From: a virus
Taxonomy: Duplodnaviria; Heunggongvirae; Uroviricota; Caudoviricetes
DNA length: 42,776 bases
Strand: one strand, 5' to 3'
Virus record (IMG/VR): IMGVR_UViG_2874945390_000010
Location: 1 to 42,776 of that record
Shown here: piece after piece, positions 30,601 to 33,600 of the stretch
Layout: the number at the start of each line of letters is the position of its first letter
Numbering within the stretch: the stretch's first letter is position 1
Made by a program: the position numbers

Positions 30601-33600
30601 ATCATTACCTGCCGGGCGTGCCCGTCGCTGGCCGTTTGAGCATATCTGCACACTGTTACGTGAGCTGGTAAAACATTCTCCCGGCGACTTTGGCTACCAG
30701 CGTTCACGCTGGAGTACAGAACTGCTGGCAATAAAAATCAATGAGATAACCGGTTGCCAGTTAAATGCCGGAACCGTTCGCCGCTGGTTGCCGTCTGCGG
30801 GGATTGTGTGGCGAAGGGCTGCGCCAACTCTGCGTATCCGTGACCCGCATAAAGATGAAAAGATGGCAGCAATCCATAAAGCACTGGACGAATGCAGCGC
30901 AGAGCATCCGGTCTTTTATGAAGATGAAGTGGATATCCATCTTCATCCCAAAATCGGTGCGGACTGGCAACTGCGCGGACAGCAAAAACGGGTGGTCACG
31001 CCGGGACAGAATGAAAAATATTATCTGGCCGGAGCGCTGCACAGCGGGACAGGTAAAGTCAGCTATGTGGGCGGCAACAGCAAAAGTTCGGCGCTGTTCA
31101 TCAGCCTGCTGAAGCGGCTTAAAGCGACATACCGTCGGGCGAAAACCATCACGCTGATCGTGGACAACTACATTATCCACAAAAGCCGGGAAACACAGAG
31201 CTGGCTGAAGGAGAACCCGAAGTTCAGGGTCATTTATCAGCCGGTTTACTCGCCATGGGTGAATCATGTTGAACGGCTATGGCAGGCACTTCACGACACA
31301 ATAACGCGTAATCATCAGTGCCGCTCAATGTGGCAACTGTTGAAAAAAGTTCGCCATTTTATGGAAACCGTCAGCCCATTCCCCGGAGGCAAACATGGAC
31401 TGGCAAAAGTGTAGCGGTATTAAGCGCAGCTATTTAGTTGCCGGATGTTGGTGGATTTTCGCGTTTTAGTTGTTCATAAAAGTGCACAGCTTTAACCAGT
31501 TCTTCTGATGTAACCAGGGCTGGTGAGGCAGTGAATAAGGCCTGAATTTGATAGTTCGGCCTGTCGTTACAATCCTCTTTTTTCGGTACATATTTCCAGT
31601 CAACAGACCACTACTTCTCCTGAAAGTCCGTAACGCCTTTTTTCACGTAGCGATATCGCCATGCCACTGGTTTTGCTTGCCCCGCCGTTTCATACCCTTC
31701 CTGATAATTAATCTCGCTCATTCATCGCCCCACTCATCACAATATGCTTCGACCGGATTTTTTCCTGCTTCATAATCATCACGCCATGCTTCAGCATCAG
31801 CAGCACTGCCACCACGTAACTCTGCATAGTCCATTAACAGTTCATGCCATTTTTCAAAACTGACGTTGTATTTAGTTGAACCAAAATCAGCCATTTTGCT
31901 CTTCCTCTTCGTCTTTTATTTCGTGATATGAGTAATTGCAGTAGTTAAAGAAAATATCTTTTGCTTCGTCATGTATTTCATCAGGCGTCGCATCAGCATC
32001 CACTTCGAATTCATCCTCGAAATCTCCACCAGCCATTCCCGTTTCAATAATTATTTTGAACTTTCGCATTTCACTACCGCCCTTTCGGGTGGCCTCCTGC
32101 TGTTCTGAGGGTGCAGAAATCCCTCCGGTTAAGGATTAAATTTTTAACAGTGCTAAACAGTTTTGGATTTTGTCACCCTGCGTATCCGCGCTTTCCCGTT
32201 ACGCTCAATCTGAATTAGCTTTTCTATATTTTTTCGCCTTTCCCGTTCCTCCTGGCGCAAGAGCCTTACATCATCTGCCAGTCTGGTTTCTCTTTTCGCC
32301 ACAGAGAGCATCCAGTCAAATGGCTCCACAACTGCACCGCAGATTTTACAGCGGACCTGACGCTCTTTTTCGTCAACCCGGACAGAAGCGTGATGGCAAT
32401 ATGGTCTTTCCGATGGCTCATAAAGAAAATTAACCTGATTACGAGGGTCATCCTCTTTTATCGGAAATAAAACGATATTGCTTAACTAATCCTCTGGTTT
32501 TATTTCCATGCTCCTCTCCTTTGATGCGAATGCCAGCGGCAATTGAAGCCTGATAGCTAATTTCACTCACAGTACCGCCTCCTGAAAATTACCCTGATAG
32601 AAAGCCAGTACACGCTGCATAGCTTCGCTCTTCCGGCACTCGCGACAGATTATATTCAGGCGCCTGTCGTAGCGGCGTATTTCTCCGTCTGGTAATGACC
32701 AGATTAGGTCCGGATCAACCGCAGATGGTTTCTTCGGCTTTGCCCTTGAGAGCTTTTTACGGGCATTTTGCCAGTCCTTACGCGCCTGTTCAGACGGGAA
32801 TAACCCGTAACCAGAGTTGTATACATCGCCACTGGCAACCAGCTCTCTGGCCAGAACGCTCATCAGATATCTTGTTGCCCCAGTTTTAGTTTCCAGTTGT
32901 CGTAACGTCTCGCGCCCACTCTGGCGTACGAGTTCAACAACCTGCCCTTTAATTTTTTCCCGCTCTTCTTGTGTAAAAACTTTTGCCACAAGCCCTCCTG
33001 AAAATTACCTCATGACCAGAAATTAACACTTACCCCCTGAAGCCCGGCGGAATTTCGTTATCCGGTTCAGAAATATGATTCACACAACGCTGGTTGTTCG
33101 TGCCGCTTACCGGGAGCAACCAGGGGTTCTCAAAATTCCGGTCCGGTCCAAAAAACGTCGTCGCTCGCTGAACAAATTCCGTTCCCGTTTTCCCGGTAGC
33201 CGCCAAGTATCTTGCGTAACGCCTCACGCCATCCAGCATGGCCTCTGGTGGCACCCCCTCGCGTAATCTGGCCTTCCAGGCACTGAAAGCGGATTTCTTC
33301 GGGTTTGCTCCGGCACGCAACGGGTACTCCCGCCAGACCTGTTCGAACACATCCGGATAATCCACTCGTCCCACAGACTGCCCGGTGTTTTCCGGGACTA
33401 CCCGATCGGCTTCCCGCTGAATGGCGGAATCGGCTTCGGGCTGCTGCAGTTGGTGTGATTGCTCCGGCCTTGCGGTCATCACCTGCTGCACAGCGCCCGA
33501 ATCGGCTTTCAGCGCATACGCTGAATCGGCTTCCGGTGTCGTGCCTGCTGGCTGACCAAGATTGACGGTCTGAACATCCCCTGCCTGGTTCGTGGCGTTT

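What the first reader, a model, noticed from the sequence alone, without database searches (positions are those of the whole stretch)
32150..32570. Chain of translationally coupled micro-ORFs with a better-looking alternative frame
The 140-aa gene stop overlaps a GTG of a 40-codon ORF (GTGA), whose stop overlaps the ATG of the 61-aa track ORF 32266..32451 (ATGA). A different frame over the same DNA encodes a more protein-like basic sequence (...CHHASVRVDEKERQVRCKICGAVVEPFDWMLSVAKRETRLADDVRLLRQEERERRKNIEKLIQ...) but has no start codon near its 5' end. This suggests a frameshifted gene, a programmed frameshift or overlapping genes.
Basis: seen in the sequence. Interest (0 to 1): 0.45.

Follow-up and report, generated by a model that had tools for sequence, protein, structure and literature searches.

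The report
Amber-stopped prophage gene, spurious micro-ORFs
The "better-looking alternative frame" is a real, conserved small phage gene that one G-to-T change has turned into a pseudogene (stop at codon 8), and the two "coupled micro-ORFs" over it are off-frame artefacts, so this is ordinary prophage decay, not a frameshift or overlapping genes.

Summary
Everything here is on the minus strand. That ORF ends in an ATGA overlap with a 61-codon ORF (32266..32451). A third frame encodes ...CHHASVRVDEKERQVRCKICG....

The third frame is the true gene, a 118-aa zinc-ribbon plus long-helix protein of phage family phrog_1621 (function unknown). It is found across Enterobacterales and is under clear purifying selection. 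It does have a start: ATG 32509..32507, behind a strong Shine-Dalgarno sequence.

In this window codon 8 is TAG (32488..32486), where relatives have GAG/GAA (Glu). No frameshift is involved. The same G-to-T change destroys a TGA in another frame and lengthens a 27-codon relic ORF to 40 codons.

The 61-codon ORF is not conserved, matches no family and is absent from 15 billion predicted proteins. The amber allele is in 91 of 5,426 complete E. coli genomes; the intact allele is in 1,192. Amber carriers have gained further lesions: a second stop in 32 genomes, a frameshift, an IS insertion, and here a private 10-bp deletion.

Verdict: an ordinary nonsense pseudogene in a lambdoid prophage. Interest is low.

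The parts
32153..32509 (-). Pseudogene of a conserved 118-aa phage protein (phrog_1621; Zn-ribbon plus long C-terminal helix). It runs from the ATG at 32509..32507 to the stop at 32155..32153.
   Evidence: The intact orthologue L003:1612-1968 is 118 aa and matches phrog_1621 at E 1.8e-56. Homologues of 114-132 aa occur in many Enterobacterales. There is a third-codon-position excess, and omega is 0.08 in this frame only.
32486..32488 (-). Amber codon TAG at codon 8. Relatives have GAG/GAA (Glu), a residue conserved in at least 90% of 39 homologues. The G-to-T change is at 32488.
   Evidence: Alignment A1 column 133 and A2 'nearly invariant E8'. The TAG allele is in 91 genomes and the GAG allele in 1,192 of 5,426.
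32511..32521 (-). Shine-Dalgarno sequence AAGGAGAGGAG, ending one base before the true ATG.
   Evidence: Read directly from the sequence. It lies inside the ~30-nt upstream stretch that travels with the gene in all four gene contexts.
32339..32398 (-). Codons 38-57, encoding the invariant C-x-H ... C-x-x-C putative zinc-ribbon ligands (C38, H40, C54, C57).
   Evidence: These are invariant columns in A2. The AF2 model has a beta-hairpin at residues 43-54. There is a weak PF08271 hit at E 1.6e-4, and the best Foldseek hit is the TFIIB ribbon 1pft at E 0.2.
32157..32158 (-). Junction of a 10-bp deletion (AATAATTAAA in relatives). It removes the native stop and changes the C-terminus from ...KTE* to ...KTV*. 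It is private to this genome.
   Evidence: Alignment A1 columns 464-473. A 40-mer across the junction finds no match in 5,426 E. coli genomes. The best full-length identity is only 98.1%.
32448..32570 (-). The 40-codon GTG ORF, an artefact. Codons 12-27 (AGIRIKGEEHGNKTRG) are a relic of the 3' tail of whichever gene lies upstream in other phage mosaics. Codons 28-40 exist only because the amber SNP also destroyed that tail's TGA (GGATGAG to GGATTAG).
   Evidence: Intact-allele relatives stop at ...GNKTRG*. The ORF matches phrog_19884 positions 22-47 of 47 over residues 2-27 only. A 47-aa ORF occupies this position in another context.
32266..32451 (-). The 61-codon ATG 'track' ORF, an artefact: an open +1 frame inside the real gene.
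   Evidence: It has no PHROG match and only a weak chance-level Pfam hit (FtsX, E 0.085, below cutoff). The exact sequence is absent from about 15 billion proteins. Its frame is broken by stops and lacks the ATG in the Kluyvera and Erwinia homologues. Omega is at least 1 in that frame.
32567..32989 (-). Upstream gene, a DUF977 / Ren-like exclusion family protein of 140 aa. Its last four codons and its stop lie in a recombination joint.
   Evidence: PF06163 at E 1.6e-29 and phrog_142 at E 2.5e-48.
32582..32590 (-). AATTTTCAG, a short repeat at the mosaic joint where the DUF977 3' end is fused to the middle of the 47-aa-ORF region of longer relatives. About 0.9 kb of nin-region genes is absent here.
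   Evidence: Comparison with L033, in which DUF977 and the 118-aa gene are separated by additional genes.

Best explanation
A small conserved early-region (nin-like) gene of a lambdoid prophage has been inactivated by one nonsense mutation. The intact gene encodes 118 aa: a disordered acidic N-terminus, a C-x-H...C-x-x-C zinc ribbon and a long basic helix. Its function is unknown. It is translated from ATG 32509 behind a strong Shine-Dalgarno sequence.

In this lineage a G-to-T change at 32488 turned codon 8 (Glu, GAG) into TAG, so ribosomes release a 7-residue peptide and the rest of the frame is not translated. That last step is inferred.

The two 'coupled micro-ORFs' are by-products. The 40-codon ORF is the relic 3' tail of a former upstream reading frame left at a phage mosaic joint, and the same SNP lengthened it by 13 codons by abolishing its TGA. 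The 61-codon ORF is an accidentally open +1 frame of the real gene. The dead gene is now decaying.
For: Shown directly:
- There is no indel relative to intact relatives in the 5' half. The only disabling change is GAG to TAG at codon 8.
- Intact orthologues are single ORFs of 118 aa starting at the same ATG, in four different upstream contexts: DUF977, ead/Ea22-like, RseB-domain, and a 47-aa ORF / P1-like phage.
- The family extends to Klebsiella, Kluyvera, Yokenella, Salmonella, Serratia, Erwinia, Pantoea, Pluralibacter and Yersinia at 45-73% identity. C38, H40, C54 and C57 are invariant, and E8 is at least 90% conserved.
- The intact orthologue matches phrog_1621 at E 1.8e-56.
- Codon-position differences are 26/18/67 (E. 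coli vs Kluyvera). Between two intact E. coli alleles there are 12 synonymous and 4 nonsynonymous changes (omega 0.08). The other two frames give omega of at least 1.
- The +2 frame ends at TGA in intact alleles. The SNP converts GGA-TGA-G to GGA-TTA-G.
- The amber allele is in 91 genomes and the intact allele in 1,192 of 5,426. Outgroups have Glu, so TAG is derived.
- Amber carriers have further lesions. A second stop at Cys57 (TGC to TGA) is in 32 genomes. One carrier has a +1A frameshift. One has an ISApl1 insertion. This window has a private 10-bp deletion. A sub-clade that includes the window has replacements at the otherwise conserved A105 and A112.
- No suppressor tRNA lies in the window, only tRNA-Met(CAT) and tRNA-Ser(CGA).
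Against: - There are no expression data, so residual translation cannot be excluded. It could come from amber read-through, or from initiation at the in-frame ATC that PGAP uses for its 107-aa model WP_225104553.1, or at GTG 32329.
- The downstream frame in this window is still open apart from the amber codon. Window vs intact allele gives only about 10 substitutions (4.5 synonymous, 5.5 nonsynonymous), too few to prove relaxed selection in this particular copy.
- The host's chromosomal tRNA set was not available, so a host suppressor was not tested.
Confidence: 0.93

Rival explanations
1. Frameshifted gene or programmed ribosomal frameshift: translation starts at the GTG of the 40-codon ORF (coupled to DUF977) and shifts +1 into the alternative frame, producing a fusion protein.
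For: The two frames overlap over 32448..32485, and the alternative frame lacks a canonical start after the TAG.
Against: - Homologues make the protein from one uninterrupted ORF with its own ATG and Shine-Dalgarno sequence. The family's conserved N-terminus (M-x-x-E-x-E-x-E-L-S-N-V-V-x-F-P) is encoded in the alternative frame upstream of the TAG, not in the 40-codon ORF.
- There is no indel relative to intact alleles.
- The 13 codons of the 40-codon ORF that create the overlap exist only in the amber allele.
- No frame other than the gene frame shows purifying selection.
Confidence: 0.01
2. The gene is still functional at a reduced level. This would come from amber read-through, from re-initiation at a non-canonical in-frame ATC (PGAP's 107-aa model), or from GTG 32329 (a 58-aa helix-only product).
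For: - PGAP annotates a 107-aa CDS from ATC in amber-allele genomes without other lesions.
- The downstream frame in the window is otherwise open.
- The allele has persisted in 91 complete genomes from diverse hosts.
Against: - About one third of amber carriers have a second stop inside the CxxC motif. Others have a frameshift or an IS insertion, as expected for an unselected sequence.
- The sub-clade has replacements at the conserved A105 and A112.
- No good Shine-Dalgarno sequence lies at a suitable distance from the ATC (sequence).
- Non-AUG/GUG/UUG starts are very inefficient in E. coli (general knowledge, not tested here).
- The 58-aa GTG product would lack the invariant zinc ligands.
Confidence: 0.05
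3. The micro-ORFs are genuine, translationally coupled small genes that overlap the larger frame.
For: - GTGA and ATGA stop/start overlaps are the usual coupling signature in phage operons. The window has 18 such overlaps among ORFs of at least 40 aa, against 6.9 expected.
- The 40-aa ORF is annotated in RefSeq (WP_001345625.1), is found on about 1,000 contigs, and matches phrog_37408.
Against: - In the majority (ancestral) allele the 40-aa ORF is only 27 codons. Its sequence is the shared 3' tail of unrelated upstream genes.
- Its start codon and first ~11 codons lie outside the module that is conserved across contexts.
- phrog_37408 is a 40-position profile that matches this ORF end to end. 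It was probably built from annotations of this same allele, but that was not checked.
- The 61-aa ORF has no significant family match and no database entry, and is disrupted in diverged homologues.
- A chain of this kind arises in about 20% of shuffles.
Confidence: 0.02

Closest known systems
phrog_1621 (PHROGs v4, unknown function); RefSeq WP_000403785.1 / WP_000403777.1 / WP_000403778.1 'hypothetical protein' of E. coli lambdoid prophages and phages such as vB_EcoS-640R1 and ArgO145
   Same: The sequence is about 95% identical over all 118 codons. It has the same ATG and Shine-Dalgarno sequence and the same downstream neighbours (DUF7167, a 58-aa gene, hokD region).
   Different: The window copy has TAG at codon 8, four amino-acid replacements (V17I, A105G, A112V, R116K) and a 10-bp 3' deletion that changes the last residue and the stop.
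Nonsense and otherwise degraded genes of cryptic prophages. PGAP already marks the same locus 'pseudo; internal stop / frameshifted' in NZ_CP019271, NZ_CP062853 and other genomes.
   Same: A premature stop at a conserved sense codon, a minority derived allele, and accumulation of secondary lesions.
   Different: Where the amber codon is the only lesion, PGAP does not flag a pseudogene. It instead annotates two CDSs, a 40-aa ORF and a 107-aa ATC-start model.
TFIIB-type zinc ribbon (Pfam PF08271; PDB 1pft)
   Same: A C-x-H ... C-x-x-C spacing around a beta-hairpin. The Pfam hit is weak (E 1.6e-4) and the best Foldseek hit is 1pft with probability 0.94.
   Different: The Pfam score is below the gathering threshold (21.6 vs 29 bits), and the Foldseek E-value of 0.2 covers only 27 columns. 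The first ligand pair is C-x-H rather than C-x-x-C/H. There is no cyclin-like core; a roughly 55-residue single helix follows instead.
Programmed frameshift genes (prfB +1, dnaX -1, lambda G/GT)
   Same: Only the superficial picture of two overlapping frames, with the 'better' protein continuing in the second.
   Different: There is no conserved two-frame architecture. Homologues have one ORF, and the upstream frame is not homologous to the family's N-terminus.

Membership tests
phrog_1621 small Zn-ribbon/helix phage protein | Significant full-length profile match | tested here: met
   The intact orthologue, about 95% identical to the window's frame, matches at E 1.8e-56 over residues 1-117 of profile positions 1-120/134. 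The window translation aligns end to end with it apart from codon 8.
phrog_1621 small Zn-ribbon/helix phage protein | Invariant C38, H40, C54, C57 and the C-terminal L-R-x-E-E-x-x-R-R-x-N-I-E-K-L-I-Q-I-E-R-N-A-K-A-R-I-R motif | tested here: met
   All four ligands are encoded in the window. The motif is present but has A105G, and A112V just beyond it.
phrog_1621 small Zn-ribbon/helix phage protein | Uninterrupted ORF from the conserved ATG (a functional member) | tested here: not met
   TAG at codon 8, 32488..32486. The window therefore holds a pseudogene of the family, not a working member.
Programmed ribosomal frameshift | Homologues keep the same two-frame arrangement, and both frames are conserved as protein | tested here: not met
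   All intact homologues have a single ORF. Omega is at least 1 in the other two frames.
Programmed ribosomal frameshift | Slippery site plus stimulatory element in the frame overlap | tested here: not met
   The overlap (32448..32485) exists only in the amber allele, because the SNP removed a TGA. No prfB-like CUU-UGA or X-XXY-YYZ heptamer was seen on reading the sequence. No formal motif scan was run.
Mutational frameshift pseudogene | An indel relative to intact orthologues at the point where the frame changes | tested here: not met
   There is no gap in alignment A1 between columns 1 and 463. The only indel is the 10-bp deletion at the very 3' end.
Nonsense (amber) pseudogene | A premature stop replaces a conserved sense codon, and the intact allele is ancestral and predominant | tested here: met
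   GAG to TAG. Glu is at least 90% conserved, and all outgroups have Glu. The allele counts are 91 vs 1,192 genomes.
Nonsense (amber) pseudogene | Signs of relaxed constraint downstream in the lineage | tested here: met
   A second stop in 32 genomes, a frameshift, an IS insertion, a private deletion, and replacements at conserved positions.
Nonsense (amber) pseudogene | No suppression of the stop codon | tested here: inconclusive
   No suppressor tRNA lies in the 42.8-kb window. The host chromosome is not available, and there are no expression data.
Overlapping / translationally coupled small genes | The 4-nt stop/start overlap motif | tested here: met
   GTGA at 32570..32567 and ATGA at 32451..32448. 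Such chains arise in 39 of 200 shuffles.
Overlapping / translationally coupled small genes | The downstream ORFs are conserved as coding sequence | tested here: not met
   The 61-aa frame is broken in diverged homologues, has no significant family match and is in no database. The 40-aa ORF is 27 codons in intact alleles and is a shared relic tail.
TFIIB-type zinc ribbon (PF08271) | Score above the Pfam gathering threshold, or a significant structural match | tested here: inconclusive
   21.6 bits against a cutoff of 29. Foldseek against 1pft gives E 0.2 and probability 0.94 over 27 columns. The profile finds no PDB sequence match.

The most novel reading that the evidence does not exclude
The amber allele is not dead. 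Either low-level read-through or non-canonical initiation (the ATC of PGAP's 107-aa model) still yields a Zn-ribbon/helix protein. Alternatively, the SNP-created 40-aa ORF, whose GTG overlaps the DUF977 stop, is translated by coupling and represents a de novo micro-protein born from the same mutation that killed the neighbouring gene.
Probability: 0.04. Interest if true: 0.35.

Novelty: already known. Interest (0 to 1): 0.08.

Why it matters
The biological significance is small: one more decaying gene in a lambdoid prophage.

The practical value is for annotation. A single SNP both kills a conserved gene and lengthens an off-frame relic ORF. Gene callers then emit spurious small proteins: the 61-aa 'track' ORF here, the 40-aa WP_001345625.1, and an ATC-start 107-aa WP_225104553.1 in RefSeq. 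No pseudogene is flagged.

The intact family (phrog_1621) is widespread in enterobacterial prophages and still has no known function. It combines a zinc ribbon with a very strongly conserved basic helix.

Tried and rejected
- **Function of the intact protein.**
  - A profile search of PDB sequences found nothing at E up to 1.
  - PADLOC gave only a chance-level hit and NCBIfam gave none for this protein.
  - Foldseek against PDB and BFVD gave no hit at E of 0.001 or better, only zinc-ribbon fragments.
  - Literature searches by accession, PHROG id, DUF977 and LygF found nothing relevant.
- **Frameshift.** Rejected, because there is no indel.
- **Suppressor tRNA in the prophage.** None found.
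- **Promoters and terminators.** The scan of 31800..33100 gave nothing above shuffle expectation.
- **GTG at 32566 as the true start (137-aa form annotated in phage 640R1).** Rejected. Homology across gene contexts begins only about 30 nt upstream of the ATG, and diverged homologues start at the ATG-equivalent codon.
- **The 47-aa ORF of other contexts.** A tblastn search of phage records found only the shared 33-residue part. Whether that 47-aa ORF (phrog_19884) is itself a real gene was not resolved.
- **The 10-bp deletion.** No other genome shares it. The low-complexity filter could in principle have masked the A-rich 40-mer, but the best full-length identity of 98.1% independently indicates that no genome shares it.
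Full report
**1. What is in the sequence.**

All genes in this part of the window run on the minus strand.
- A 140-aa GTG ORF lies at 32567..32989. It is a DUF977 protein (PF06163, E 1.6e-29; phrog_142 'Ren-like exclusion protein').
- Its TGA is overlapped by a GTG (GTGA, 32570..32567) that opens a 40-codon ORF at 32448..32570.
- The TGA of that ORF is overlapped by an ATG (ATGA, 32451..32448) that opens a 61-codon ORF at 32266..32451.
- The third frame is open over 32153..32485. It reads ...YCHHASVRVDEKERQVRCKICGAVVEPFDWMLSVAKRETRLADDVRLLRQEERERRKNIEKLIQIERNGKARIRRVTKSKTV*.

Seven codons further up is an ATG (32509..32507), behind AAGGAGAGGAG.

**2. Comparison with relatives settles the matter.**

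The 521-bp region matches 2,468 of 5,426 complete E. coli genomes and several phages. I aligned the window with phage vB_EcoS-640R1, E. coli MLI106K2 and E. coli WP8-S18-ESBL-07.
- There is no indel in the first 463 columns.
- At column 133 the window and WP8 have T where the other two have G.
- In the intact relatives the frame reads ATG GAA ATA AAA CCA GAG GAT GAG TTA AGC..., a 118-aa ORF (WP_000403785.1).
- In the window codon 8 is TAG.

The gene is therefore cut by a nonsense mutation, not by a frameshift.

**3. The alternative frame is a real, conserved gene.**

- The intact protein matches phrog_1621 (unknown function) over its whole length at E 1.8e-56.
- Protein and locus searches find 114-132-aa homologues in Klebsiella, Kluyvera, Yokenella, Salmonella, Serratia, Pluralibacter, Erwinia, Pantoea and Yersinia, down to about 45% identity.
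- An alignment of 39 of them has invariant M1, F15, P16, C38, H40, C54 and C57, plus a nearly invariant C-terminal motif LR-EE--RR-NIEKLIQIERNAKARIR. E8, the codon hit by the mutation, is conserved in at least 90%.
- Substitutions between homologues fall mainly at third codon positions of this frame (for example 26/18/67 for E. coli vs Kluyvera).
- Two intact E. coli alleles differ by 12 synonymous and 4 nonsynonymous changes (omega 0.08). Re-framing the same alignments by +1 or +2 gives omega of at least 1.

**4. The true start is the ATG at 32509.**

The gene occurs behind at least four different upstream neighbours:
- DUF977;
- an ead/Ea22-like protein;
- an RseB-domain protein, and an unrelated protein in a P1-like phage;
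- a 47-aa ORF.

Nucleotide homology between these contexts begins only 29-30 nt upstream of the ATG, so it includes the Shine-Dalgarno sequence. Diverged homologues start at the equivalent Met, with at most a few open codons upstream.

**5. Where the micro-ORFs come from.**

*The 61-codon ORF* is simply the +1 frame of the real gene.
- It is open in the roughly 95%-identical E. coli copies, but lacks the ATG and is cut by stops in Kluyvera and Erwinia.
- It has no PHROG match and only a chance-level Pfam hit.
- Its exact sequence is absent from a collection of about 15 billion predicted proteins.

*The 40-codon ORF* has a more instructive origin.
- In intact alleles that frame stops after 27 codons at GGA-TGA.
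- The amber SNP changes GGATGAG to GGATTAG. It thus creates TAG in the gene frame and destroys TGA in the +2 frame at the same time, adding 13 codons up to the next TGA.
- The preceding residues, AGIRIKGEEHGNKTRG, are the shared C-terminal tail of the unrelated upstream genes in the other contexts. They also form the C-terminal part of the 47-aa ORF (phrog_19884) in a fourth context.
- Comparison with a longer relative (L033) shows that the window's arrangement joins the DUF977 3' end to the middle of that 47-aa-ORF region at a short repeat, AATTTTCAG (32590..32582). About 0.9 kb of genes is missing.

The GTGA overlap and the first codons of the 40-codon ORF therefore sit in a mosaic joint. 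Chains of three ORFs joined by 4-nt overlaps also arise in 39 of 200 shuffles of the window, so the motif alone carries little weight.

**6. Population evidence that the amber allele is dead.**

I used 40-mers in which every 28-nt megablast seed must span the SNP.
- The TAG allele is found in 91 genomes and the GAG allele in 1,192 of 5,426. Outgroups have Glu, so TAG is derived.
- Of the eleven other amber carriers inspected, five share a second stop, TGC to TGA at Cys57 of the CxxC motif. One has a +1A frameshift, one has an ISApl1 insertion and four have no further lesion.
- The second stop occurs in 32 genomes, and all five listed are amber carriers.
- The window itself has a 10-bp deletion that replaces the last codon and the stop. 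No other genome shares it.
- A sub-clade that includes the window has A105G and A112V in the otherwise conserved helix.
- No suppressor tRNA lies in the window.
- Where the amber codon is the only lesion, PGAP annotates a 40-aa CDS (WP_001345625.1) and a 107-aa CDS starting at ATC (WP_225104553.1). Where a second lesion exists it flags a pseudogene.

**7. What the intact protein may be.**

AlphaFold2 with the 39-sequence alignment gives mean pLDDT 73.7. It shows a disordered N-terminus, a small beta-hairpin (43-46 / 51-54) carrying the C-x-H...C-x-x-C ligands, and one long helix (63-117) with pLDDT above 90 towards the C-terminus.
- Pfam gives a sub-threshold TFIIB zinc-ribbon hit at E 1.6e-4.
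- The best Foldseek hit is the TFIIB N-terminal ribbon 1pft, at E 0.2.
- Nothing significant turned up in BFVD, PDB sequences, PADLOC, NCBIfam or the literature.

My inference is a zinc-ribbon protein that oligomerises, or binds a partner or nucleic acid, through its basic helix. This is inference only, and the function remains unknown.

**8. Verdict.**

This is an ordinary pseudogene in a lambdoid prophage, with some value as an annotation lesson. Residual expression by read-through or non-canonical initiation is not excluded, but it is unlikely given the secondary lesions in the lineage.

Noticed in passing
window 30282..31431 (transposase ORF 30383..31414, + strand): A 1,150-bp IS630-family element is inserted in the nin/hokD-proximal region of the prophage. 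The nearest relatives (99.6-99.7% identical on both sides) lack it, and no complete E. coli genome in the collection has it at this site.
   Followed up: partly
window 32157/32158: A 10-bp deletion (AATAATTAAA) at the 3' end of the pseudogene is private to this genome among 5,426 E. coli genomes. It regenerates a stop immediately (..KTE* becomes ..KTV*). It could be a real mutation or an assembly error.
   Followed up: partly
window 32582..32590, and L033:1640-1660 / 2535-2560: The DUF977 3' end and the interior of a 47-aa ORF region share an imperfect repeat around AATTTTCAG. The window looks like a deletion or recombination product between the two, lacking about 0.9 kb of genes (DUF4014, an 87-aa gene and others) that longer relatives have. 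As a result the last four DUF977 residues differ (QEAVL vs QKVLL).
   Followed up: partly
L030-L033: 2501-2644: A 47-aa ATG ORF (MTTITKERIELFIKFSGGGTVSEISYQASITAGIRIKGEEHGNKTRG, phrog_19884) fills the gap upstream of the 118-aa gene in many E. coli prophages and overlaps it by 23 nt. It is indexed in 3,976 blocks of the contig collection. Whether it is a real small gene is unknown.
   Followed up: no
window 26220..26295 (-) and 41796..41885 (-): A tRNA-Met(CAT) lies inside the prophage late region. A tRNA-Ser(CGA) lies at the far end, next to a 341-aa ORF (40718..41743, +) that could be the integrase (not checked), so this may be the attachment site.
   Followed up: no
RefSeq records, e.g. NZ_AP022261.1 1957803-1958220 (L001:1551-1968): In amber-allele genomes PGAP annotates a 40-aa CDS (WP_001345625.1) and a 107-aa CDS with a non-canonical ATC start (WP_225104553.1) instead of a pseudogene. 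Both look like annotation artefacts of the single SNP.
   Followed up: yes
window 32070..32152 (-): The spacer between the pseudogene and the DUF7167 gene contains a GC-rich hairpin-like motif (GGCCACCCGAAAGGGCGGT) just upstream of the next ATG. No T-run follows it, and the terminator scan did not call it.
   Followed up: no
L008 (MAG 'Collinsella sp.' scaffold) and L011 (Ursidibacter maritimus contig, 233 bp): Copies of this E. coli prophage gene at 97-98% identity sit in assemblies labelled as unrelated taxa. This is probably contamination or mis-binning.
   Followed up: no
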